DNA of 64,000 nucleotides from a virus (IMGVR_UViG_3300037483_000348:1943-65942); one strand, 5' to 3'. Positions 30,345 through 57,134 are shown, counted from the stretch's first letter. Numbers and translations are program-made. Notes: a model not told the origin generated them from the letters alone.

Positions 30345-30648
30345 AATAGGGCTAGGTCGCGGTCGGTCGATATGCGCTTCGCGGTTCATGGGCGCGCTTC
30401 TAACGCAGGAGGCAGATGTTCGCAAGAGAGCGGCTTTTTTGCGTTTCGGGCAATGAAAAGGCGGCCGACCGACATTCTACCCAACGCCGATGGCCGCCTC
30501 TCTGGTGATCCCTACGGGACATGGCTTTTCTACGCCAGAAGCGATTGCATGTGAAGCCGTGAGCGAGCGGATGCTGTGCATAGACGGCGGCTCGGCTCAG
30601 GAGCCGGGTCAGGACGCGCGTTCTTGCCTTCCGGGGCTAATTATATAC

Positions 30649-30676
30649 TTGACACCACAAACGCAGGATGTAGTAT
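30649..30676 (+). promoter_or_regulatory. Transposase promoter within left IR
   Basis: TTGACA-N16-TAGTAT. Confidence 0.6.
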
Positions 30677-30700
30677 GGGTTGCAGAAGGGAACTGCAGCC

Positions 30701-31645
30701 ATGTTTTCAGCACCGCACTTTCACAATGACGACGCCGCCCGTAAGACGCTGGAGGAAATCCGCTGGCCGAATGGGCGCAATTGCCCGCACTGCGGAACGG
30801 TTGATCGGTCCTATCAGACTAAGCGCGCGCAGAAGTCAGGCGCGGTTGTCTATCGCTGCGGTGAGCCCTCTTGCCGGAAGGATTTCAGCGTCACGACCAA
30901 GAGCGTGATGGAGTCGTCACATATCCCGCTGCACAAGTGGATGCAGGGCTTCTATCTCATGGCGTCGTCAAAGAAGGGCATGTCAGCCCACCAGATGCAC
31001 CGGACACTCGGCATTACCTACAAAGCGGCATGGTTCATGGCGCATCGCATCCGCGAAGCCATGCGCGCCGATGGCACGTTCGGGCCGCTTGGTGGCGAGG
31101 GAAAGACGGTTGAGGCCGACGAGACCTATTACGGCTATCGCGACGATAAGAAGCTCGGCAAGCGCACCATTCGCGGCAAGCGCGGACATGGTGGCCAGCG
31201 CCCGATTATCGCACTGGTCGAGCGTGGCGGTTCTGTGCGGACCTTCTATGCCGCCGTTGCCGACAAGGCGAACGTCACCAAGATCGTGACAGAAAACGTT
31301 GCCCGCGAAAGCTATCTCTACACCGACGAAAGCCGCCTCTATGGCGATGCCGACCAGCTTTTCGCGGAGCATTCAACGGTGAAGCACACCGCCGGCGAAT
31401 ACGCCCGCTATGAAGGCGACCGGGTAATCCACACCAACACGGTCGAGAACGTGTTCAGCGTGTTCAAGCGTGGCATGAAGGGTGTCTATCAGCACTGTGC
31501 AGAGAAGCACCTTCACCGGTATTTGGCGGAGTTTGATTTCCGCTACAATCACCGTTCGGCGCTAGGCGTCGAGGATAAGGCGCGTACCGTTGCCGCCATC
31601 CGCGGCGCGGAAGGCAAGCGCCTCACCTATCACCAAGCTGACTAA
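30701..31645 (+). CDS. IS1595-family transposase
   Basis: N-terminal CPHC zinc ribbon; VEADETY, YTDES, TNTVENVFS catalytic motifs. Confidence 0.95.
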   Translation: MFSAPHFHNDDAARKTLEEIRWPNGRNCPHCGTVDRSYQTKRAQKSGAVVYRCGEPSCRKDFSVTTKSVMESSHIPLHKWMQGFYLMASSKKGMSAHQMHRTLGITYKAAWFMAHRIREAMRADGTFGPLGGEGKTVEADETYYGYRDDKKLGKRTIRGKRGHGGQRPIIALVERGGSVRTFYAAVADKANVTKIVTENVARESYLYTDESRLYGDADQLFAEHSTVKHTAGEYARYEGDRVIHTNTVENVFSVFKRGMKGVYQHCAEKHLHRYLAEFDFRYNHRSALGVEDKARTVAAIRGAEGKRLTYHQAD

Positions 31646-31875
31646 GCCGGTTTTCCACCACCGCGCCGCCCGCTTTTTGCGCTGGCGGAAGAAGCATCCG
31701 AAGAAGTAGCGGCTTTCTTGCCGCGCTTCTTCTGTTGCGCGGGCACGCCTATCGGTGACATGCTCTTGAGCGGCGCGGGAGGAGTGTTCACGGCCGACTT
31801 TAACAGCCTGCGAAAGCGGACTTCGGCTTCGTTGTCGCCGTAGCGGTCTTTGTCTGGAATGTCATTTTGACCCAT
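31642..31875 (-). CDS. Small IS1595-associated hypothetical protein
   Basis: EAEVRFRRLLKSAVNTPP pattern; convergent with transposase. Confidence 0.55.
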   Translation of the reverse strand: MGQNDIPDKDRYGDNEAEVRFRRLLKSAVNTPPAPLKSMSPIGVPAQQKKRGKKAATSSDASSASAKSGRRGGGKPA

Positions 31876-31877
31876 AA

Positions 31878-32765
31878 ATGAAAACCTCGAGAATTCTGAT
31901 TAATCAAAACGGTGTGGATTACCGTTTCCTTCGGTTTGAGCGGTCATCTGACGGCTCAATTATGGTGATAGTCGATCGCGATTCCAGCCCGGGGATAGAC
32001 GTAAGAAGAAGTTTTTCGGACGGGAGATTTCTTCCGACGAGCAACCCTGACGGTAAGCGAGAGCCGCATGCGCGCTGGACGGTTCACACATCGGGAATCG
32101 TAAACTATCGGCAAGCAAGCGAATCTCCAAGGACCCAGAGAATCCAGCCGCTATACGAGCTAACACAGAATTGGCTCATAGGATGGGTTTCGATTCCGGC
32201 AGTTAGCCGCCTGACACCCTTGGACCATTCAAGGACGCACCTTGTTCAGGGGACAATAGATGTTCCTCACAATTTCAACGAGCGCATCACGTTAGGAATT
32301 CTGGTTTGCCCCAGCCCTCCCGTATCGGAGATCAGCGAATATTGGCTCGCACTCAATTTCGAAACCTATTCAATTGTCGTTACGCCGGTGCCACTTCCAT
32401 TCGATATCGGCCCCGATATTTCGGAACACTTCATCTACTGCTCTGTGGCGCCTCAAACCGATAGCTTTCCAGGTGTCGGGGTTGCGGAAGCGGAACTCAA
32501 ATTCTACCAAAAAGTCCACGGTCACGGCGTGAAGGTTTTCCATCAGGAAGACGGTTCCTATGTTGTTCTAGCCCCGCGCGAAATGGTTAAGCCGCCGACA
32601 CTCAAGGTAGGCTTCGACAGGGACGATTTGCGAATCGAACTAATCCACTCGCAGAAATCTCTGCGTCATAAGGTTCGGTTTTGGATTTGTGACAAAGGCG
32701 GTCGAAACAAGACCGACGATCTTCACAAACATATTGTTTCAATGGAGTTCGATAGCAGGCTCTGA
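31878..32765 (+). CDS. IS passenger, unknown 295-aa protein
   Basis: Long low-GC ORF inside IS ends; no motif recognised. Confidence 0.7.
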   Translation: MKTSRILINQNGVDYRFLRFERSSDGSIMVIVDRDSSPGIDVRRSFSDGRFLPTSNPDGKREPHARWTVHTSGIVNYRQASESPRTQRIQPLYELTQNWLIGWVSIPAVSRLTPLDHSRTHLVQGTIDVPHNFNERITLGILVCPSPPVSEISEYWLALNFETYSIVVTPVPLPFDIGPDISEHFIYCSVAPQTDSFPGVGVAEAELKFYQKVHGHGVKVFHQEDGSYVVLAPREMVKPPTLKVGFDRDDLRIELIHSQKSLRHKVRFWICDKGGRNKTDDLHKHIVSMEFDSRL

Positions 32766-32966
32766 CGGGAGTTCGGGAACCGGGCCCCACCAACGCAGGT
32801 CATCGCATGCGTCTCCGTTTTCCTCATCGAAGAAGCCCCGCTCATCGCCCCACACCAATCGCGGATATCCTAGATCATTCAAGCCAACGAAGATGCGGCC
32901 ATCGCGTGGTGCCGTCGCAATAGGGCTCGCAAACTTCTCACAATCTCTGTCGGGCGCGCCAGACAT
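32739..32966 (-). CDS. Small hypothetical protein (DUF551-like)
   Basis: PIATAPRDG motif. Confidence 0.4.
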   Translation of the reverse strand: MSGAPDRDCEKFASPIATAPRDGRIFVGLNDLGYPRLVWGDERGFFDEENGDACDDLRWWGPVPELPSEPAIELH

Positions 32967-33086
32967 GGGGATTCCTCCAGTGTCAGACGCAACACTAGCA
33001 CTTGTGCTTGTGGTGTGAAAGACATAAATAGGCTTCCGGGGTATTGGGAGAGGGCGGAGGTGAGAATCGCGCTCAGCGGGGCTGTA

Positions 33087-33263
33087 TCAGGACGAGATGT
33101 TGTAGAATGAACGGATGCCAAGGCCACTGTATGGAAATGGCGTGGCGGTGTCGTTCCGCAGTTGGCGATCGTAGCTAGATTCCAATGCCACTTCGCCGAA
33201 GGCCTTCTTTTCCATGAGCGCGAGATGCAGCTTCATGATCTCCTGCATCTTCGCCCACAATTC
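33087..33263 (-). pseudogene. 3' part of a 79-aa phage gene split by IS element 2
   Basis: Joins in frame with 37482-37552 once the IS and one TSD are removed. Confidence 0.75.
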
Positions 33264-33335
33264 CGGTATTAGGTAGCAGTCTCACCTACAAGGTAATAGT
33301 GTCCCCCTTACGCTTGAGGCGTGAGGGGAAAGATA

Positions 33336-34190
33336 ATGCCGCTAGCTGCGCATTATTTAGCACTAAAGCAGATAGCATCGGCCGATCTAACAGACGCGCT
33401 GGTTCGACCCGCACTTGAATCGGTAATTGTCGAGTCACTCGATGTCATCAACGGAGCGCAGGCTATTGATCTCGTTTCGAAGGTGGCGGGCAAATCGTAC
33501 GAGATGCGCCACTTCGGGAACAGGTTCTCTCGCCCGATCAACAAGGCGCTGTTTTGGCCGAATGTCGACCGACAAGCAATGTTGACGGCTTTGTTTGACG
33601 CTCCAGAGGCCGCTGATCCGGCAACATTGGACCGATATCTCTACACAGCAGCTATGTCGTACCCTGCGGCAAACGATCTAGAAAAATCCGACGACAAGAA
33701 AACACCTGGGACATTCTTTGAGATTCTCATCGGGTTCCTTTTTGCGGCCCGCTACGGCGTGAATCCTAGAAAGAGCATCACGGTCCCGACACTGGAGATC
33801 GAAAACAAAATTCCGACCGACTACATTTTCGAGCTTTCGGGCAATCGGCGGATACATCTACCGGTTAAGCTTTCGACGCGCGAGCGGGTCGTCCAAGTGT
33901 GGGCGCACCAGCGGGTGCTGGACGGTATGCACGGCGTAGGCCGATTCCGGGGAATTCTGGTTTGTCTTACTGAGACGAACAAGCAACAGAACACGTCAGT
34001 GGTCGAGGTATGCCTGCCCGGCCAATGGGCCGCATACCAGATGTACATTGCTCAGCTCGATAGGGTCTATTACCTAGACCCACCTAACAAATATCTCGCA
34101 CTCCGAGACACGTGGCCGCATATCCAAGTGTGGCCGCTATCTCGTTTCTTTCAGGAAGCGGATGCCGTAACGCAGCCGGTCAACGCCTGA
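33336..34190 (+). CDS. Putative type II restriction endonuclease, PD-(D/E)xK fold
   Basis: PGTFFE...PTD...PVKLSTRER matches the E...PD...KxSxRER layout of EcoRII/Cfr10I-type enzymes; next to MTase. Confidence 0.65.
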
Positions 34191-34911
34191 GCCCCTTCCA
34201 CCTCTGGCTAGGCTTGGCCTTCCAAAAGACCAGAAAATACGAATGGTTCTTCCGCGCATGCGCTTGAGTGATTAGTCGGCTGACACCCGGCTTGTTGCGG
34301 CGCATCACCACAAACAGATCTTCGGTTACGAAGCCCTTGGATTCGTATTCGTTGATGATTTCCACATGGGTAAGCCGTTGACGATTGGCGCAAACCTCAT
34401 CCTGGCACTTCACGATAAAGAAGCCGTTCCTGCGGAGGACTCTCATCGCCTCGTCTGCCGTCTGGAAATAGAGGTCTAGGACGGCTTCGTGATACTTCTT
34501 TGTCGGATGGCTAGCCCCGTTGTTCCGATAATACCCCTCGTAATTCTGGTGGCCAACGTGGGCGCTCCCGCCCGGCGTGTGCATGTAGGGCGGATCGAAA
34601 ACGATACAATCTATCGACTCATCTTCGTAGGGCAGTTGTCGGCAGTCGACACCATCTGTCAGGTCGGTCGCAAGCAGCTGATAGGCGCTTGGGTCGACGT
34701 TCTTCCAGAAGACGCCCTTGCCATAAGTAATATCAGCGATAGTGCTCCCCCGTGGCACGTAAAGCGATAGGATATTCGGAAGCACAAGGTCATTGGTCTC
34801 CTGATAAGCGCTGAAAACCAGATCGTTGGTCGCTTCGCCTTGTGGCGACTTGCGGCCTGGCTTTCTTTCAACCTCAGGCGTGATGGCGGAATAATGTTCT
34901 ACAAATGACAC
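34180..34911 (-). CDS. Amino-DNA methyltransferase (m6A or m4C)
   Basis: [11 protein letters not shown] (motif I-like) then VFDPPY (motif IV); GTG at 34911 abuts upstream stop (alternative start 34947). Confidence 0.85.
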
Positions 34912-34912
34912 T

Positions 34913-35146
34913 TTAATCGTCCTCCAAATGGATTGCTTTTGCTCCAATCGCCTTCAGGCATTGGACGAGAAAGACGGCTGAGAACGCACCTCTCCCAATT
35001 TTGTTGGAGATGTTCCGGCGGTCTTCATGAATGCCCATATCTCCCAATTTGTCGGCCAGGTCGGCGTAGCTAAGATTCCGCCGACTTAGCTCGCTCTTAA
35101 GGAGTCCCTTAACCTCAGATTGCCAGTCGCGCGACGTTCGCGTCAT
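34913..35146 (-). CDS. DUF6471-like HTH regulator
   Basis: [19 protein letters not shown]...[20 protein letters not shown]. Confidence 0.8.
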
Positions 35147-35197
35147 AGGGAGTCATCCGATTCAATGTCAGAGTCATCATAAACGATGTTTTTCTCA

Positions 35198-35242
35198 TTG
35201 ACAACAAGATTGGAAACACCATATATGATGTCATCGACATCA
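35198..35242 (+). promoter_or_regulatory. Transposase promoter with palindromic operator TGATGTC-ATC-GACATCA
   Basis: TTGACA at 35198; ATATATGAT 17 nt later; palindrome 35226-35242. Confidence 0.55.
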
Positions 35243-35256
35243 AAAACGGTGTTTCT

Positions 35257-36225
35257 GTGGCTCAACATTTCCTCCTCTCCGCTGCTGCCCGGTCGCTTTC
35301 GCTGACCGCCGTTGCGCGCATGTCAGAAGAGGAGGCGCGCGATACCTTTCGCCGCATTCGTTGGGCCGACAACGATGGCGAACCCTACTGCCCTCGTTGC
35401 GGTTGCGTGACCGTATCTGCGCTGGCAACGCGCCCCGTTTGGAAATGCAGCGGATGCAAGTACCAGTTTAGCGTCACCGCCGGCACGATCTTTGACAATC
35501 GCAAACGCCCCGTCCGCGATTACCTCTTGGCGATCGCGATCTTTGTGAACGGTGCCAAGGGGTACAGCGCCCTTCAATTGTCCCGTGATCTCGACTGCCA
35601 GTACAAGACAGCATTTGTGCTGGTCCACAAACTTCGCGAAGCCATCACAGCAGAGCAGCGGGACGTGAAACTGTCCGGCACCGTGGAAATCGACGGCGCG
35701 TACTTTGCGGGCTATCGCAAGCCCGAAAACAAGGCTTCCGAGCGGGTCGACCGGCGGCTAGCGGAAGAACGTACAGGCAAGCGCCGTGTCGTGATTGTGT
35801 TGCGTGAGCGCGGAGGGCGCACTCTTCCCTTTGTCACCCGCAAGGAAAGCGAAGGCACTGCGATCGCGCGCCAGCGGGTTGCGATGGGCAGCACGATCCA
35901 TGCCGATGAGGCTACAGCTTGGGACACCCTGTACGCGCACTACGAAATGAAGCGCGTTAATCACTCTGTCGAGTACAAATCGGATGACGGCGCGTGTACC
36001 AACCAAGCGGAATCATTTTTTGCCCGCCTACGCCGTTGTGAGATCGGCATTCACCACCGCATCGGATCGCGATTGCTTCGCAGCTACGCCTCGGAAATGG
36101 CGTGGCGCGAGGATCGGCGCCGGGTCAGCAACGGCGGTCAGTTCCGCGAACTGACAAGCCTCGCGCTAGCGCATCCGGTCAGCCGCGAGTGGTGCGGGTA
36201 CTGGCAGCGCAATAAGGCAGCATAG
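35257..36225 (+). CDS. IS1595-family transposase
   Basis: CPRCGC...CSGC zinc ribbon; VEIDGAYF, IHADEA, TNQAESFF motifs. Confidence 0.95.
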   Translation: MAQHFLLSAAARSLSLTAVARMSEEEARDTFRRIRWADNDGEPYCPRCGCVTVSALATRPVWKCSGCKYQFSVTAGTIFDNRKRPVRDYLLAIAIFVNGAKGYSALQLSRDLDCQYKTAFVLVHKLREAITAEQRDVKLSGTVEIDGAYFAGYRKPENKASERVDRRLAEERTGKRRVVIVLRERGGRTLPFVTRKESEGTAIARQRVAMGSTIHADEATAWDTLYAHYEMKRVNHSVEYKSDDGACTNQAESFFARLRRCEIGIHHRIGSRLLRSYASEMAWREDRRRVSNGGQFRELTSLALAHPVSREWCGYWQRNKAA

Positions 36226-36236
36226 GAGATCATTGC

Positions 36237-36671
36237 ATGGGCGAATCGCACGTTATGACCGGCCTTGTGGCCAAGCGCGCCGAATTGGCCGGGAAACTGG
36301 AGCACCATCAATCGATGGTTCGGCAGCTCATTATGGAAATCGATGCCCTCGATCAGACGTTACGGCTTTTCAATCCAGACATCGAACTTGATGAGATCAA
36401 GCCAAAGCCGCTGCCGCCTCGCCACGCCGCCTACAAAGGCGAAGTCGCTCGCATCGTTCTGTCGACGCTGCGCAACGCTAGTAGGCCATGCAGCACTCAC
36501 GAACTTACCATGCACGTCATGGCGGAACGCGGCATGAATACCGCAGACAAGCGGCTTGTCAAAACCGTCGGAAAGCGGGTTGGCGCTTGCCTGCGACACC
36601 ATCGGTCGAAGGGATTGTTACGGTCCAACCAGGGTCTCGGGAAACTTATCTATTGGGAGGTCGCGCGCTAG
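36237..36671 (+). CDS. IS passenger: coiled coil plus winged-helix-like domain
   Basis: GLVAKRAELAG...LDQTLRLFNPD pattern. Confidence 0.7.
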   Translation: MGESHVMTGLVAKRAELAGKLEHHQSMVRQLIMEIDALDQTLRLFNPDIELDEIKPKPLPPRHAAYKGEVARIVLSTLRNASRPCSTHELTMHVMAERGMNTADKRLVKTVGKRVGACLRHHRSKGLLRSNQGLGKLIYWEVAR

Positions 36672-36910
36672 TCCCGGTCAAAATCGCGACTGTGGTAGCC
36701 CTCCCTAAACATAGCGTCCAGTTCGCGGATTAGAATGTAGCGCGCCGCGTCGTTCGGGGAGTTGCCGAGCCGCTTTTTGTCAACAACGAGATGCTTCAAG
36801 TACGCGAAGTGGTCAGTAGGAAGCTTAAACGACACCGACTCCGCATCGCTTCGGCCGGGTGGTCGACCCCTCTTCCGTTTGCCAGGCGCTACCCGATCTG
36901 CCATACGCAC
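36668..36910 (-). CDS. Small AT-hook / ribbon-helix-helix-like protein
   Basis: KRGRPPGRS then VSFKLP...NDAARYILIREL. Confidence 0.55.
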   Translation of the reverse strand: MRMADRVAPGKRKRGRPPGRSDAESVSFKLPTDHFAYLKHLVVDKKRLGNSPNDAARYILIRELDAMFREGYHSRDFDRD

Positions 36911-37048
36911 ACTGATTTTCTTGCATTAAAAAACTGATTTATTATTCCTCTTAATTGTTGCTCTGGCGAGTCCTGATGCGCTATTTTCTTAGAGCGGTGA
37001 TTCGAATTCGTGGACTCTCTCGAAGTTTAATGTGCAGGATAGCGCCGC

Positions 37049-37079
37049 AAAGGAAACGGGCGGCCCAAAAGACCGCCCG
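37049..37079 (-). terminator. Terminator of micropeptide unit
   Basis: CGGGCGGTC-TTTTG-GGCCGCCCG then TTTCCTTT on minus strand. Confidence 0.7.
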
Positions 37080-37099
37080 CCCCAGCCTCTAGACAGGCA

Positions 37100-37243
37100 T
37101 TAGCCGGTCGTCACGGTCGTCACGGTCGGACGTGGCGGCCGGCGGAAGTGCGAGACGATGGTTTCCCACTTCCCATGCCTTAATCGGAGATACGTCCGCA
37201 CGTAGACGGTCTTTTCCCCGATCAGTTCAGCAACGTGACGCAT
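37100..37243 (-). CDS. 47-aa Arg-rich micropeptide
   Basis: GGAG RBS; VYVRTYLRLRHGKWETIVSHFRRPP; own promoter and terminator. Confidence 0.55.
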   Translation of the reverse strand: MRHVAELIGEKTVYVRTYLRLRHGKWETIVSHFRRPPRPTVTTVTTG

Positions 37244-37266
37244 AATGCGTTCTCCGTACTGAGAGC

Positions 37267-37329
37267 GGCAGCCTGGGGCATGCCTCCCCTCGGGGCACCC
37301 CATGTGCCCCGCCTGGCATCAGGGCTACC
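37267..37329 (-). ncRNA. Long structured 5' leader hairpin
   Basis: Nested stems GGTAGCC/GGCTGCC, ATGCC/GGCAT, CGGGGCAC/GTGCCCCG. Confidence 0.45.
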
Positions 37330-37481
37330 GGTGGGGTGTCTGGGAGGTCTCAGATGGAGCACGAATCAACGCGCTGTTGCTGTACGATAATTGCACCCTC
37401 CGCGTGTAAAGGGTCAAGTCGCTAAAGGTTAAATCCCAAGGGCTATCAAGACTCTATAGGTGAGACTGCTACCTAATACCG

Positions 37482-37552
37482 CACAATTCCGGCGAAGGGT
37501 CGCCGATATCGACAATCCTGACATCGGTCTGCGTGATTTGCACTTCGTGCAT
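37482..37552 (-). pseudogene. 5' part of the IS-split phage gene
   Basis: ATG at 37552 with RBS, MHEVQITQTDVRIVDIGDPSPEL ending in the TSD. Confidence 0.75.
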
Positions 37553-39903: not shown

Positions 39904-40179
39904 TCATCGTTCCTTCGCTAGAGCGGCGTCGATCATGTCTTGCCAGCATCCGAGCGCGTCATTTCCGAATCGCGCTTCAAGCATTCCGTCCGTCGGCTCA
40001 CGCATTGCCTCTATAGCCGCGCGGGCGGGAGCGACGAACTCGCGCCATAGAAAGTGGCCGGGGTCACCGTTTTTCAAACGCCCATCTACCCGGGGCAAGT
40101 CGCCGGGCTCGATGCTGTCTGGATCGTATCCGTTCCGCTGGCACAGGACGCGCGCCACGCGTTCAACAATCTCGCTCAT
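39904..40179 (-). CDS. Hypothetical protein
   Basis: IVERVARVLC...ARAAIEAMREPT pattern. Confidence 0.6.
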   Translation of the reverse strand: MSEIVERVARVLCQRNGYDPDSIEPGDLPRVDGRLKNGDPGHFLWREFVAPARAAIEAMREPTDGMLEARFGNDALGCWQDMIDAALAKER

Positions 40180-41201
40180 GCGGCCTTCCTCTTTGCTTTC
40201 TTCACCTTCGGCGCCTTGGCCCCGAAAGCATCCTCGATGATATGCTCTCCTGCATCGCCATGAACATAGGTCTGCACGAGCAGCTGCCTCGAGTCCCATC
40301 CGCCGAGCTTCGCCGCGGTGTCGACGTCGAGCTTCTTCCTGACGATCAGCTCCGTCGCGAATGAATGCCGGCCTGGCTGGTGCGTGCCGAGGTAGGGGAT
40401 TTTCGCCCTGGCGCACACGTCCTGGATCACGGTGTAGACGGCGCGCTTCGATCGGTAGCCGAACACGCGATCGCCACGCGGTTTCAGATCCTGCAGCTCG
40501 AACACCAGCTCGGCCGTCAGCTTCGCAACCCTTTCCTTGCCGTTCTTCGTCCGCGTTAGCGTGACGGTCCGGTTCGGAAGGTCGAGATCGTCGGGCTCGA
40601 CGCGCAGCGCTTCCGAGATGCGCGCCGCCGTCTGGTAGTTGAACAGCATCAGCGCACGCACCCACGGATTGTCGCAGTGCTTGCGGAAGCGGTCGATATA
40701 GTCGCGCGTCACGGCAACCCTTGGCGCGGTATCCGGCAGGCGCACGTCGCGGTCGCGCTTGGAAAACCCCTTGATCTTGATCGCGGGGCAGTCGCCGGCG
40801 TCGGCGCTGTGATTGATGACCGCCTTCATCGGCGTCACGACCTGGCGGTTCCATGTCGTATAGGCCGCATCGGGATAAAGTTCCTTCGCGGCCTGCCGGA
40901 CCTTCGTTCCGCTCAGGTCGGAAATGCGCGTGTCCCGGAAATGCTCGATCAGCGGCTCCAAGAATCTGTCGTCCTTCCCTGCATCGATGTAAGCCTCGGC
41001 GGCCATGCCGAACGTGTAGATCGCCTTGTTGCCGAGGATCAGCGCTTCGTGTGCTTCGCGCTCTCTGGACTGGCGGATCGCATCTGCCTTCTTTTCCTCA
41101 GTTTCTCCAGTGCTCTCATGTACGGAGCTTTCCCCGTCCTTCGTCCTGACGGTCCCTGTGAGCCACCAGAAGCGGCCTCGTCTGTAGATGGTGAGCGGCA
41201 T
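40176..41201 (-). CDS. int: Tyrosine integrase
   Basis: TAARISE (R), TKNG (K), HQPGRHSF (HxxR), GGW, TYVH (Y). Confidence 0.92.
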   Translation of the reverse strand: MPLTIYRRGRFWWLTGTVRTKDGESSVHESTGETEEKKADAIRQSREREAHEALILGNKAIYTFGMAAEAYIDAGKDDRFLEPLIEHFRDTRISDLSGTKVRQAAKELYPDAAYTTWNRQVVTPMKAVINHSADAGDCPAIKIKGFSKRDRDVRLPDTAPRVAVTRDYIDRFRKHCDNPWVRALMLFNYQTAARISEALRVEPDDLDLPNRTVTLTRTKNGKERVAKLTAELVFELQDLKPRGDRVFGYRSKRAVYTVIQDVCARAKIPYLGTHQPGRHSFATELIVRKKLDVDTAAKLGGWDSRQLLVQTYVHGDAGEHIIEDAFGAKAPKVKKAKRKAA

Positions 41202-41395
41202 GACTGACTCCGTACAAACAACTGGTCGACCTGCTCTGCCGTCAGCAGGACCTTGCGCTTGTGAACATAACCTATCCCGGCCTTGCGCGCGCGCTCGCGG
41301 ATGGTGCGGGCGGTGATGGTGACGCCGCTGGCGCTGAGCACGGCAGCCCAATGCTCGGCGGGCTTTGATCGGGAGAGGTCGGGGAGAATGGTCAT
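41039..41395 (-). CDS. Excisionase-like protein overlapping int
   Basis: ARTIRERARK HTH-like segment, LLTAEQVDQL; position. Confidence 0.55.
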   Translation of the reverse strand: MTILPDLSRSKPAEHWAAVLSASGVTITARTIRERARKAGIGYVHKRKVLLTAEQVDQLFVRSQSCRSPSTDEAASGGSQGPSGRRTGKAPYMRALEKLRKRRQMRSASPESAKHTKR

Positions 41396-41916
41396 TCGAC
41401 GGCCTCAACCTTCGCGCCGTGAATATCGGAAAAACTATGCCATCCAGCCTCGGTGAATTCCTTGCTATAGACTTCGCCGCGCGGCTTGATCGGTTGCCAT
41501 CCCTCGTCGCAAAACAGACGGTAGTGCCAAACGTCGAGCGCCTTGCCTTCGGGCGTGTACGGGCCTTCGAGCCAAGTCAGCTTAGCGTCACCGCCGAAGA
41601 AAGCCTCCGCGAGTTCCTGATAGAATGCCGCCTGCTTCGGGACAGGAGAGCCTGTCATCGGGTCGCGCTGAGCCATCGACAGGTGCCAGCATCGTTCATA
41701 GTCCGGGTTCTTCCACCATCCGCCCGTATGGTGGCCGATGTCGCGCGTCGGCGTTCCCGAGATCGGCGTCACGCGACATTCACCGCCAATCTGGATGACG
41801 AGCTTGTGGTGGCCGCAGCCGTTGGGCTTGCGCAGATCGCATGAACCGCCGGCCTCGGCGACGATGGCTTTCGCCTCTCGAAGCACCAGTCGGCGGAATT
41901 TCCTCAATCTGCTCAA
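41392..41916 (-). CDS. Possible fusion of a HicA-like N-terminus and a conserved phage domain
   Basis: TTG with GAGGAGG RBS; GCGHHKLVI...TPISGTP then GWWKNPDYERCWHLS...WHYRLFCD. Confidence 0.55.
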   Translation of the reverse strand: MSRLRKFRRLVLREAKAIVAEAGGSCDLRKPNGCGHHKLVIQIGGECRVTPISGTPTRDIGHHTGGWWKNPDYERCWHLSMAQRDPMTGSPVPKQAAFYQELAEAFFGGDAKLTWLEGPYTPEGKALDVWHYRLFCDEGWQPIKPRGEVYSKEFTEAGWHSFSDIHGAKVEAVE

Positions 41917-55540: not shown

Positions 55541-55947
55541 TGGAAGGACTGAAAATGACAGCGACGAAGGACGATTGGAAACGAGCCACGGCCGAAGTCG
55601 AAGCCATCGAGAAGGAGCGCGAAGCGCTGCTGGTTCCGACCAAGGAACGATATGATGCCGCCCGCGATCGGCTCGAGGAGATCGAAGATCAGTGCGGTGA
55701 TCTGCTCGGGCGCTGTGAGGGCTGCTCAGAACCGATATTCGAAGGCGACCGGCACAGCTTTGATCGAATGAGCGATATCATGATGTGCGAGGATTGCTCA
55801 CCGACCTGGCATGATCTGCTGCGCGAGCCGGAGAGCTTCTACAACGGCGAAGATGTCTACTACACGCCGGAGACAGCCAAGGCCGCGGCGGATGCTCATA
55901 TCGCCAAGGGCGGAAGCCTTGACGACAAGATCGGCGTCTCCTCCTGA
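55540..55947 (+). CDS. Coiled-coil plus zinc-finger protein
   Basis: CEGC...CEDC. Confidence 0.6.
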   Translation: MEGLKMTATKDDWKRATAEVEAIEKEREALLVPTKERYDAARDRLEEIEDQCGDLLGRCEGCSEPIFEGDRHSFDRMSDIMMCEDCSPTWHDLLREPESFYNGEDVYYTPETAKAAADAHIAKGGSLDDKIGVSS

Positions 55948-57134
55948 TGCACAGCTTCTCCGAAATCACCCGCGAGCACACGCCGCGCGTCGGCATCCGC
56001 TGGCATCAATTCGCCGACCTGTTTCCCTGGATCGAGGGCAAGGCCCTGGTCGAGCTCGAAGCCGATATCGATGCGAACGGCGTGCTCGAACCGATCGTGT
56101 TCCTCGACGGCGCCATCCTCGACGGCCGCAACCGCTACATCACGGCGCGCAAGCTCGGCGTCGAATATCCCCGCGTCGAATACACCGGCGACGATCCGCT
56201 TGCGTTCGTTCTGTCGAAGAACCTGTCTCGCCGCCATCTCACCGACCAGCAGCGCGCCATGGTTGCGGCGAAGATCGCAAAGCTGCCAAAGGGCAGGCCC
56301 GGGTTAAATCGGCCAGATGGCGCAATTACCACGGGCGAAGCCGCGAAGATGATGGACGTGCCTGTCCGCTCCGTGACGCGGGCCAAGGTCGTCGAGCGCG
56401 AGGGATCGACAGAGCTCAAGAACGCGGTCGAGACCGGCCAGATCAGTGTGGCGTCTGGCGCCGAGCTCGCCCGGCTTCCCCACGACAAGCAGGTCGAGAT
56501 TATCCGCCAGGCCGATCCGAAGGCGTTCCAGCAGGCGGCGAAGCAGGTGCGCGCGGAGCGCCGCGCCGAGAGCGGCGGCCGTCGCGAAAACGATCTCTAT
56601 CCGACACCGGATAGCATCATCGCTGAAATCGTGAGGCGATGGAAACCGAGGGCGCGAAGGATTTGGGAGCCGTGCTACGGCGATGGCCGGGTCGCGAAGG
56701 CACTCATTCAGGCTGGCTACGGTGTTGCTTGGGGCGATATCACGACAGGCCAGGATTTCTTCTCCTACGCCGCGCCATTTGAACCAGCGCTATGCACGAA
56801 CCCACCTTTCGACCGCGTCCGCGAGTTCATCGATCATGCCTTCGCCATCGGCGTCCAGGAAATGTGCCTCGTGCTGCCGGAACGCATATGGGCCTGCGGC
56901 GCGGGGCGGGAGCAATTCGAGCGTCACCGCCCGGCTGTCTGGTCCAACATGGACTGGCGCGAGGACTATCTTGGCAAGGGCGGCAGCCCCGACCGCGCCC
57001 TGGCGGTGGCGATATGGGATAGCCCGTGCGCGCCGACATGCAGTTTCGACGTGTGGACGCGGCAGGCGACAAGCGAAGCCGAAGCCTTCGATCCTGAGAC
57101 CGGCGAGATCCTCGAGGCGGGAGAGGCGGCTTGA
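55947..57134 (+). CDS. ParB-like domain fused to an adenine DNA methyltransferase
   Basis: GVLEPIV...ILDGRNRY...NLSRRHLT; NDLYPTP, IWEPCYGDG, TNPPF. Confidence 0.85.
   Translation: MHSFSEITREHTPRVGIRWHQFADLFPWIEGKALVELEADIDANGVLEPIVFLDGAILDGRNRYITARKLGVEYPRVEYTGDDPLAFVLSKNLSRRHLTDQQRAMVAAKIAKLPKGRPGLNRPDGAITTGEAAKMMDVPVRSVTRAKVVEREGSTELKNAVETGQISVASGAELARLPHDKQVEIIRQADPKAFQQAAKQVRAERRAESGGRRENDLYPTPDSIIAEIVRRWKPRARRIWEPCYGDGRVAKALIQAGYGVAWGDITTGQDFFSYAAPFEPALCTNPPFDRVREFIDHAFAIGVQEMCLVLPERIWACGAGREQFERHRPAVWSNMDWREDYLGKGGSPDRALAVAIWDSPCAPTCSFDVWTRQATSEAEAFDPETGEILEAGEAA

What the first reader, a model, noticed from the sequence alone, without database searches (positions are those of the whole stretch)
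33256..37489. IS1595 (ISNha5-type) transposon carrying a convergent restriction-modification pair inside a phage
Seen: perfect 25-bp IRs and an 8-bp TSD enclose a PD-(D/E)xK nuclease and a small DPPY methyltransferase whose 3' ends overlap by 11 bp, an HTH gene, the transposase, two more ORFs and a micropeptide unit. Known: RM systems act as defence and addiction modules, and KxSxRER-type enzymes often recognise CC/GG-containing sites. Inference: a mobile mini defence island that makes the phage a vector of RM immunity and addiction. The compact 244-aa MTase type paired with this nuclease looks atypical.
Basis: partly seen in the sequence, partly recalled or inferred. Interest (0 to 1): 0.76.

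Follow-up and report, generated by a model that had tools for sequence, protein, structure and literature searches.

The report
Jumping gene carrying restriction-modification in phage
This is an intact 4.2-kb jumping gene of a known type (an IS1595 'transporter' insertion sequence) that landed in a temperate phage carrying a restriction enzyme and its protective methylase. Its relatives carry other defence or toxin-antidote gene sets in the same slot.

Summary
Perfect 25-bp inverted repeats (33264-33288 / 37457-37481) and an 8-bp duplication (CACAATTC) bound a 4,218-bp IS1595-family element inside a temperate phage.

The nuclease is a close structural relative of Kpn2I, a CCGG-family enzyme. 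It keeps the catalytic D...K...Q residues and the R-E-R motif that reads CCGG. The small DPPY methylase lies convergent to it in 54 of 80 bacterial loci that encode the nuclease. The pair is therefore a real, widespread, uncharacterised type II RM system, not an odd pairing. Its methylase family has more than 7,500 homologues.

The DUF6471 HTH gene, the 144-aa gene and the 47-aa ORF are backbone genes of the IS lineage, not RM parts. The cargo sits downstream of the HTH gene. In the nine-member transposase clade holding this element, that slot carries five kinds of type II RM, a Shosta-like pair or a Panacea-type antitoxin pair. The antidote gene always comes first.

No enzyme activity or specificity was tested, and site-avoidance analysis gave no signal. 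This scan has found IS1595 transporter ISs with RM cargo before on other DNA. Verdict: a clean new member of a known kind, with a moderately interesting cassette-swapping lineage behind it.

The parts
33256..33263 (.). Left copy of the 8-bp target-site duplication (CACAATTC)
   Evidence: Identical to 37482-37489.
33264..33288 (+). Left terminal inverted repeat (IRL), starting CGGTATTAGGTAGCA
   Evidence: 25/25 complementary to 37457-37481. The same IR consensus is found in 15/17 genomic and 25/80 metagenomic relatives, each with an 8-bp TSD.
33336..34190 (+). Type IIP restriction endonuclease, Kpn2I-like, CCGG family (284 aa from ATG 33336; 289 aa from GTG 33321)
   Evidence: PADLOC REase_II 1e-25. 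PDB 6ekr (Kpn2I) 4.6e-26 by sequence. AF2 model pLDDT 88.6; best fold match 6ekr, E 9e-16, TM 0.76, followed by PspGI, PfoI, AgeI, BsaWI and Ecl18kI. D167, K183, R187-E188-R189 and Q197 are invariant in 17 homologues.
34180..34911 (-). Compact amino-methyltransferase (243 aa from GTG 34911; 255 aa from TTG 34947). Motif I (ADITYGKG) lies before motif IV (FDPPY).
   Evidence: PF01555 scores 36.1 bits against a cut-off of 26.7. More than 7,500 homologues of 66-80% identity, named site-specific DNA-methyltransferase. Convergent partner of the nuclease in 54/80 loci. The fold is a plain class-I SAM MTase.
34913..35146 (-). DUF6471 helix-turn-helix protein (77 aa). An IS backbone regulator, first gene of the HTH-MTase operon.
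   Evidence: PF20075 4e-28. Divergent from the transposase in 13/17 genomic relatives and detected in 53/80 metagenomic relatives, with or without RM. Absent from 80 RM loci that lack this IS.
35176..35204 (-). Promoter-like site (TTGTCA-17-TATGAT) upstream of the HTH-MTase genes
   Evidence: Matches 10 of 12 consensus positions. This is a consensus match only.
35257..36225 (+). IS1595-family DDE transposase with N-terminal zinc ribbon (322 aa)
   Evidence: PF12762 3e-41, PF12760 2e-11, NF033547 4e-41. Relatives align from residue 1.
36237..36671 (+). orf144, a conserved backbone gene of this IS lineage; function unknown
   Evidence: Homologues in 11/17 genomic and 47/80 metagenomic relatives. 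Forms a 26-member cluster among complete elements. No Pfam family; only a weak HARE-HTH lead.
36668..36910 (-). orf80, a small ORF of unknown function
   Evidence: Homologue only in L109 and L161. No family hit.
37100..37243 (-). 47-aa Arg-rich small ORF (inside the 67-aa frame 37100-37303), followed by a terminator-like hairpin
   Evidence: The core of about 30 residues is conserved at 48-70% identity in L109 and 10 metagenomic relatives. Terminator-like site at 37099-37074.
37457..37481 (-). Right terminal inverted repeat (IRR)
37482..37489 (.). Right copy of the 8-bp target-site duplication

Best explanation
The segment is an intact, recently inserted transporter insertion sequence (tIS) of the IS1595 family, of the ISNha5-like lineage.

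Backbone. A DUF6471 HTH gene lies divergent from a zinc-ribbon DDE transposase. These are followed by a conserved 144-aa gene and a small Arg-rich ORF. The element ends in 25-bp IRs (CGGnnTTA...) and makes an 8-bp target duplication.

Cargo. The slot between IRL and the HTH gene holds a type IIP restriction-modification pair. A compact DPPY amino-methyltransferase sits directly behind the HTH gene and is inferred to be co-transcribed with it. A convergent Kpn2I-like nuclease of the CCGG family overlaps its 3' end by 11 bp.

Shown: the anatomy, the fold and motifs, co-conservation of the pair, membership of an IS lineage with swappable cargo, and the phage context.

Inferred:
- The nuclease cuts a CCGG-core site (possibly TCCGGA) that the methylase protects.
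- In a lysogen the pair restricts unmodified incoming DNA and penalises loss of the element or prophage.
- Placing the antidote gene behind the IS's own regulator gets protection expressed first on arrival in a new genome.
- The cassette is exchanged between related IS backbones by recombination between conserved flanks.
For: - Ends and TSD.
- Transposase domains.
- Related elements: 15/17 genomic and 25/80 metagenomic relatives have the same IR consensus and perfect 8-bp TSDs, lengths 2.2-7.6 kb.
- Nuclease: sequence match to Kpn2I at 4.6e-26 with aligned D, K, RER and Q. PMC6344858 gives PD...K...D/E plus R-(D/E)R as the family signature, with Q in Kpn2I. Best fold match is Kpn2I, TM 0.76. 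6EKR is Kpn2I.
- Pair co-conservation: the DPPY MTase is convergent in 54/80 loci. In about 22 others a C5 MTase, often with Vsr, takes its place. That fits a cytosine-containing site.
- Sister element L155 has the same order IRL-R-M-HTH-Tnp-orf144-smallORF-IRR. Its nuclease is 63% identical, but its MTase is a C5 type. DNA homology breaks exactly at the M gene.
- Transposase tree: a 100/99-supported clade of 9 elements. Eight carry RM (five kinds), a Shosta-like pair or a Panacea-type pair in that slot, antidote first.
- Promoter-like site before HTH-M.
- Phage genes around the element.
Against: - No activity, methylation or transposition data exist.
- No sigma-70-like promoter was found for the nuclease gene.
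- NCCGGN hexamers are not specifically avoided, either in the phage or in 1.08 Mb of loci from genomes carrying the nuclease. The site therefore remains unassigned.
- The MTase model is mediocre (pLDDT 68.8) and resembles no solved DNA MTase closely. The target base (m6A or m4C) is open.
- No second copy of this exact element and no empty-site phage were found. Mobility of this copy is inferred from its perfect ends and from relatives.
- ISNha5 itself was not available for comparison.
Confidence: 0.82

Rival explanations
1. The DUF6471 HTH is a controller (C) protein of the RM system. It times restriction against modification and is part of the cargo rather than of the IS.
For: Its stop codon abuts the MTase start, so the two look co-transcribed. 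A promoter-like site precedes it. C proteins are small HTH proteins (general knowledge).
Against: Homologues sit divergent from the transposase in 13/17 genomic relatives and occur in 53/80 metagenomic relatives, most of which carry no RM. None was found beside the nuclease in 80 loci that lack this IS backbone. In relatives the same gene precedes unrelated antidotes such as the Panacea antitoxin, a DprA-like protein and Vsr.
Confidence: 0.1
2. The RM pair is no longer a working restriction system. For example, the nuclease is dead or silent and only the methylase matters, protecting phage DNA from host enzymes of the same specificity.
For: No promoter-like site was found for the nuclease gene. 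Phages often carry solitary protective methylases, and this phage also has a ParB-methylase fusion.
Against: The nuclease is full length and keeps every one of the 61 columns that are invariant in 17 homologues, including the catalytic and recognition residues. Its model is confident. A Shine-Dalgarno-like GAGGGG lies before ATG 33336. The perfect IRs and TSD argue for a recent insertion with little time for decay.
Confidence: 0.1
3. The RM genes reached this spot independently of the IS, by a separate insertion into a resident IS or by recombination. They are not mobilised with it.
For: RM units can move on their own (PMC2853133). The GC of the RM part (about 54%) is below that of the transposase part (about 59%).
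Against: No internal repeats or second TSD bound the RM genes. L155 carries a homologous nuclease in the same position within its own IR and TSD. Six of nine clade members hold an RM in that slot inside the IRs. A different IS1595 lineage (L004, L005) also encloses this RM pair within its IRs, with 7/8-matching TSDs.
Confidence: 0.06

Closest known systems
Transporter IS (tIS) of the IS1595 family, ISNha5 group (Siguier, Gagnevin and Chandler 2009, as cited in PMC11891212 and PMC8101967)
   Same: - DDE_Tnp_IS1595 transposase with an N-terminal zinc ribbon, terminal IRs and an 8-bp TSD.
- Passenger genes, including a transcription regulator.
- The IR starts CGGnnTT, the length lies within 3.4-7.9 kb, and E...R falls at +7. 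These match ISNha5-group features as I recall them from ISfinder.
   Different: - The cargo here is a complete type II RM pair.
- The 'regulator passenger' (DUF6471) and orf144 behave as conserved backbone genes.
- The lineage exchanges toxin-antidote cassettes in one fixed slot. I found no description of this in the papers held.
- The ISNha5 reference itself was not compared.
Kpn2I (TCCGGA) and the CCGG family of type IIP restriction endonucleases (PMC6344858; PDB 6EKR)
   Same: - Fold (TM 0.76).
- Permuted active site D...K...Q, with Kpn2I's unusual glutamine.
- R-E-R CCGG-recognition motif.
- Convergent R and M genes.
   Different: - About 25% identity in the fold alignment.
- From memory (Lubys et al. 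1999), the partner of Kpn2I is a roughly 42-kDa N4-cytosine MTase with its own C protein. Here the partner is a 243-aa DPPY enzyme, and in relatives a C5 MTase plus Vsr.
- Specificity for the outer base pair is unknown.
Transposon-like RM units flanked by inverted repeats with an 8-bp duplication (Furuta, Abe and Kobayashi 2010, PMC2853133)
   Same: RM genes lie inside IRs with a short TSD, and the RM acts as a selfish mobile unit.
   Different: Those units lacked a linked transposase. This one is autonomous and belongs to a defined IS family.
Earlier findings of this scan: IS1595 tISs with RM or methylase-nuclease cargo, some in phages
   Same: Same family of element and same class of cargo. 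One earlier case also describes a phage-resident family that swaps cargo.
   Different: - A different subgroup (ISNha5-like with a DUF6471 HTH, not ISSod11-type).
- A separate R and M pair of the Kpn2I type.
- Antidote-first placement behind the IS regulator.

Membership tests
IS1595 family insertion sequence / transporter IS | Transposase with the DDE_Tnp_IS1595 catalytic domain | tested here: met
   PF12762 E 3.4e-41 (141 bits against a cut-off of 27); NF033547 4.2e-41.
IS1595 family insertion sequence / transporter IS | N-terminal zinc-ribbon domain (all groups except IS1016) | tested here: met
   PF12760 E 2.1e-11, residues 23-70. The feature is stated in PMC8101967.
IS1595 family insertion sequence / transporter IS | Terminal inverted repeats and an 8-bp target-site duplication | tested here: met
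   25/25 IRs and an 8/8 TSD. The same holds in 40 related complete elements.
IS1595 family insertion sequence / transporter IS | Passenger genes inside the IRs (defines a tIS) | tested here: met
   The R and M genes lie between IRL and the backbone genes.
ISNha5 subgroup of IS1595 | IR ends CGGnnTT, length about 3.4-7.9 kb, DDER-type catalytic residues (recalled from ISfinder, not from a held paper) | tested here: inconclusive
   The IR starts CGGTATT, the length is 4,218 bp, and the transposase has ...NQAESFFARLR... (E, then R at +7). The criteria are from memory, and the ISNha5 sequence could not be fetched.
CCGG-family type IIP restriction endonucleases (Kpn2I-like) | PD-(D/E)xK fold with the permuted PD...K...(E/D/Q) active site | tested here: met
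   D167, K183 and Q197 align with Kpn2I residues and are invariant in 17 homologues. The fold search ranks Kpn2I first, then other family members. The definition comes from PMC6344858.
CCGG-family type IIP restriction endonucleases (Kpn2I-like) | R-(D/E)R motif at the N-terminus of the recognition helix | tested here: met
   R187-E188-R189 are invariant and align to TRER of Kpn2I.
CCGG-family type IIP restriction endonucleases (Kpn2I-like) | Cleavage at a CCGG-containing site | not testable with these tools
   Needs enzyme assays. Site avoidance gave no signal.
Type II restriction-modification system | Nuclease and methyltransferase genes adjacent and co-inherited | tested here: met
   A DPPY MTase is convergent in 54/80 loci, and most of the rest have a C5 MTase there instead.
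Type II restriction-modification system | The methylase protects the site that the nuclease cuts | not testable with these tools
   Requires a methylome or protection assay.
N6/N4 amino DNA methyltransferases (PF01555) | (D/N/S)PP(Y/F) catalytic motif, a SAM-binding motif I, and a family score above the cut-off | tested here: met
   FDPPY and ADITYGKG are invariant in 18 homologues. PF01555 scores 36.1 bits against 26.7, covering half of the profile only. The motif order is linear (I before IV), unlike typical beta-class members.
C-protein-controlled RM system | The small HTH gene is co-inherited with the RM genes | tested here: not met
   No DUF6471 homologue was found in 80 RM loci. The HTH travels with the transposase instead.

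The most novel reading that the evidence does not exclude
The window's element belongs to a lineage of ISNha5-like transporter ISs that works as a shuttle for toxin-antidote-type modules: type II RM of several kinds, a Shosta-like pair, Panacea-type TA, and further out Rosmer and BstA-like genes. The module sits in one slot directly behind the IS's own DUF6471 regulator. The antidote gene comes first, so the IS supplies the 'protect first' expression logic and gains addiction in return. Cassettes are exchanged between backbones faster than the transposase diverges, and phages are among the vehicles.
Probability: 0.45. Interest if true: 0.62.

Novelty: new member of a known kind. Interest (0 to 1): 0.45.

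Why it matters
- It is a well-delimited example of how a restriction-modification system travels three levels deep: a cassette inside an IS, inside a phage, inside a cell.
- It identifies a large, unannotated family of Kpn2I-like nucleases. All 540+ homologues are named 'hypothetical'. The family has two alternative methylase partners, so it is a ready source of new CCGG-type specificities.
- It assigns a role to DUF6471 proteins and the orf144 family as backbone genes of an IS lineage.
- If the clade-level pattern holds, these ISs are a simple natural platform for exchanging defence and addiction cassettes. They would also be a useful guilt-by-association marker for finding new toxin-antidote systems in the unannotated cargo, for example in L109 and L145.

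Tried and rejected
- Recognition site from site avoidance. Observed/expected counts for all 64 palindromic hexamers were computed in the window and in 1.08 Mb of loci from nuclease-bearing genomes. TCCGGA was 0.76-0.82 and ACCGGT 0.32-0.85, neither standing out from other palindromes. No conclusion.
- Other copies or an empty site. One copy only in the virus record. No megablast hit in plasmids or phages. The exact junction and IR patterns are absent from viral and metagenome contigs. The left-neighbour protein has no viral relatives, and it proved to belong to another IS.
- Solved relative for the MTase. None by sequence profile. Fold search gives only generic class-I MTases such as Trm11, Bud23 and N6AMT1.
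- Direct comparison with ISNha5. No sequence or table is in the paper library, and no Nitrobacter plasmid hit was found.
- Literature on TCCGGA methylomes. Nothing useful.
- The idea that the HTH is an RM controller was considered and rejected.
- The 57-aa remnant of the interrupted phage ORF has no family hit.
Full report
**Observation**

The window is bases 1943-65942 of a 65.9-kb IMG/VR virus record rated 100% complete. PHROG scans give portal, major head, head-morphogenesis, tape-measure and integrase (40176-41408, minus strand) genes. The host DNA is therefore a temperate tailed phage.

Within it, 33264-33288 and 37457-37481 are perfectly complementary over 25 nt. Both are flanked by CACAATTC. 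A 25-nt perfect inverted repeat in 6 kb is expected about 1e-8 times by chance, and an 8/8 flank match has p of about 1.5e-5 (my arithmetic). Removing the element joins a 79-aa minus-strand ORF of unknown function.

The element's GC is about 53-54% over the RM genes, against 60-63% in the phage.

**Gene content**

The ORFs are listed and scanned:
- A nuclease at 33336-34190 (+).
- A DPPY methyltransferase at 34180-34911 (-), overlapping the nuclease's 3' end by 11 bp.
- A DUF6471 HTH gene at 34913-35146 (-), whose stop abuts the MTase start.
- An IS1595 transposase at 35257-36225 (+), with a zinc ribbon and the DDE domain.
- orf144, orf80 and a 47-aa Arg-rich ORF, followed by a terminator-like hairpin.

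**The nuclease**

By sequence it matches one solved structure, 6EKR, at E 4.6e-26. 6EKR is Kpn2I (also the fold-search title).

PMC6344858 defines the CCGG family by a permuted PD...K...D/E active site and an R-(D/E)R recognition motif. It notes that Kpn2I has glutamine in place of the last acid. The window protein aligns D167, K183, R187-E188-R189 and Q197 to those positions. All are invariant in 17 homologues from several phyla.

An AlphaFold model (pLDDT 88.6) finds Kpn2I first (E 9e-16, TM 0.76). PspGI, PfoI, AgeI, BsaWI and Ecl18kI follow, all CCGG-family enzymes.

The family has 540+ members, and every one that carries a name is annotated as hypothetical.

**The pair**

In 80 genome loci that encode a nuclease homologue, a homologue of the small MTase (59-73% identity) lies immediately downstream and convergent in 54.

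In most of the other 26, the neighbour is a C5-cytosine MTase of 360-390 aa, often with a Vsr mismatch endonuclease. A few of the 26 are cut off by contig ends.

So the nuclease is always part of an RM unit, with two interchangeable methylase types. A cytosine methylase plus Vsr fits a CCGG-containing site.

The DPPY MTase family is very large: more than 7,500 homologues, about 245-256 aa, 66-80% identical. It has motif I before motif IV. No solved relative exists by sequence, and its model resembles generic class-I MTases.

'Atypical pairing' is thus not supported. 'Uncharacterised' is fair, because no PADLOC type II MTase model matches it well (best E 2e-5).

**What belongs to the IS**

I compared the element with transposase relatives from three sources:
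- Alphaproteobacterial genomes, 48-69% identity.
- Metagenomes, 61-83%.
- 18 other viral contigs, 53-65%.

These relatives share the IR consensus CGGnnTTAkGTAGCA... and perfect 8-bp duplications. This holds in 15/17 genomic and 25/80 metagenomic loci. The remaining loci are mostly short contigs. Element lengths run from 2.2 to 7.6 kb.

A DUF6471 gene lies divergent from the transposase in 13/17 genomic relatives and was detected in 53/80 metagenomic loci. An orf144 homologue is present in 11/17 and 47/80. The small Arg-rich ORF is conserved in the nearest relatives.

None of these genes accompanies the RM pair elsewhere. They are backbone genes, and the HTH is not an RM-specific controller.

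**The cargo slot**

A maximum-likelihood tree of 41 transposases from complete elements places the window in a clade of nine with 100/99 support. In all nine, orf144 follows the transposase directly, and 1.5-2.1 kb lies between IRL and the HTH gene.

That slot holds:
- Window: Kpn2I-like R plus DPPY M.
- L155: Kpn2I-like R (63% identical) plus C5 M.
- L126 and L128: REase_II (PDLC03423, DUF7687) plus D12 adenine M.
- L129: MT-A70 M plus BglII-like R.
- L192: Vsr plus C5 M plus Eco29kI-like R.
- L166: a DprA-like protein plus a ShosT-like protein (Shosta-like).
- L134: a SocA/Panacea antitoxin plus a 138-aa ORF.
- L109: three ORFs with no family hit.

In all eight annotated cases, the gene directly behind HTH on the same strand is the antidote: M, Vsr then M, or the antitoxin.

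The window's nearest transposase (L126, 82%) carries a different RM. The most similar nuclease (L155) sits on a more distant backbone (69%). DNA homology between the window and L155 stops exactly at the M gene. Cassettes, and even single genes of a cassette, are therefore exchanged faster than the backbone diverges.

Outside the clade (32 elements, 73 ORFs scanned) the cargo includes:
- Rosmer RmrT/RmrA.
- Two BstA-like KilA-N/Bro-N proteins.
- A Panacea antitoxin.
- A HicB-like antitoxin.
- A methylase-Mrr fusion.
- DUF3800, ParA-like and LRR proteins.

A separate IS1595 lineage, with a transposase about 30% identical, also encloses the same R-M pair within its own IRs and 7/8-matching TSDs in two deltaproteobacterial MAGs.

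**Mechanism**

Shown: the anatomy, the family memberships, co-conservation of the pair, and cargo exchange.

Inferred:
- The nuclease cuts a CCGG-core palindrome and the methylase protects it.
- M is transcribed with HTH from the promoter-like site at 35204-35176. R has no recognisable sigma-70 promoter, which would favour methylation before restriction on arrival.
- In a lysogen the pair restricts unmodified DNA and penalises loss of the element.

The site could not be inferred, because NCCGGN avoidance is unremarkable.

**Comparison and novelty**

IS1595 tISs with passenger genes are known (Siguier et al. 2009, cited). So are RM units in transposon-like structures and on prophages (PMC2853133).

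This scan has already reported several IS1595 tISs with RM or methylase-nuclease cargo, including a phage-resident cargo-swapping family of another subgroup.

The element is thus a new member of a known kind. Three things seem undescribed in the sources I could read:
- DUF6471 and orf144 as the backbone of this lineage.
- The fixed antidote-first slot with swapped toxin-antidote cassettes.
- The Kpn2I-like nuclease family with its two methylase partners.

**Limits**

- The ISNha5 reference was not available.
- ISNha5-group criteria and the properties of M.Kpn2I are from memory.
- The cargo survey covers 41 complete elements from biased samples, and two of them (L126, L128) share their cargo.

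Noticed in passing
window 30628-33040: A second, different IS1595-family element lies only about 220 bp to the left. Its transposase (30680-31645) is 30% identical to this one, with E...K at +7. It has imperfect 38-nt IRs at 30637-30674 / 32994-33031 and carries a 295-aa low-GC passenger (31878-32765) with no PHROG hit. Two cargo-carrying ISs have therefore landed in the same accessory region between the tail genes and the integrase.
   Followed up: partly
window 55947-57134 (+): The phage also encodes a 395-aa protein with ParB-like and DNA-methyltransferase PHROG matches (phrog_799, phrog_4715). This is a second, phage-borne methylase unrelated to the IS cargo.
   Followed up: no
L116 and L117 (two loci of one genome, G323): Two copies have almost identical transposases (tree branch lengths about 0.01) but different cargo between the transposase and orf144. 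One carries a 575-aa N6_N4 methylase fused to an Mrr-like nuclease domain. The other carries a SocA/Panacea antitoxin plus a 124-aa ORF. This is evidence for very recent cargo exchange within one genome.
   Followed up: partly
L110:3061-10670: A 7.6-kb relative carries a Rosmer pair (RmrT 6.8e-41; HTH plus M78 peptidase RmrA). It also holds what looks like a nested IS630-type transposase (DDE_3). A different small HTH gene takes the place of DUF6471.
   Followed up: partly
L118:8761-9531 and L119:7055-7885: Bro-N and KilA-N proteins are carried as cargo by relatives. Two members of the outside-clade ORF set, presumably these two, match the PADLOC BstA model (best E 2.5e-54). BstA is a prophage abortive-infection protein.
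   Followed up: partly
L004:7572-10572 and L005:7728-12387: A distinct IS1595 lineage (IR CGGGAGTAT..., transposase 29-32% identical) in two deltaproteobacterial MAGs encloses homologues of the same nuclease (55%) and DPPY methylase (59-68%). The TSDs match at 7 of 8 positions. This looks like independent capture of the same RM family.
   Followed up: partly
window 36237-36671 (orf144) and homologues: A 140-165-aa protein family is conserved in this IS lineage (26 of 41 complete elements). It has no Pfam family. It is predicted to have an N-terminal coiled coil, and there is a weak HARE-HTH/HTH_20 lead in L155's copy. It lies either directly after the transposase or inverted at the far end of the element.
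   Followed up: partly
L109:7090-8801, L145:4122-5663: Cargo-slot ORFs have no Pfam or PADLOC match: 245, 201 and 121 aa in L109, and 353 and 159 aa in L145. By position they are candidates for unknown toxin-antidote or defence modules.
   Followed up: no
L224:882-3893 (IMGVR_UViG_3300047462_000191): This is the only other viral contig found with a nuclease homologue (56%). It carries the nuclease with Vsr and a convergent C5 methylase, and no IS1595 transposase nearby.
   Followed up: partly
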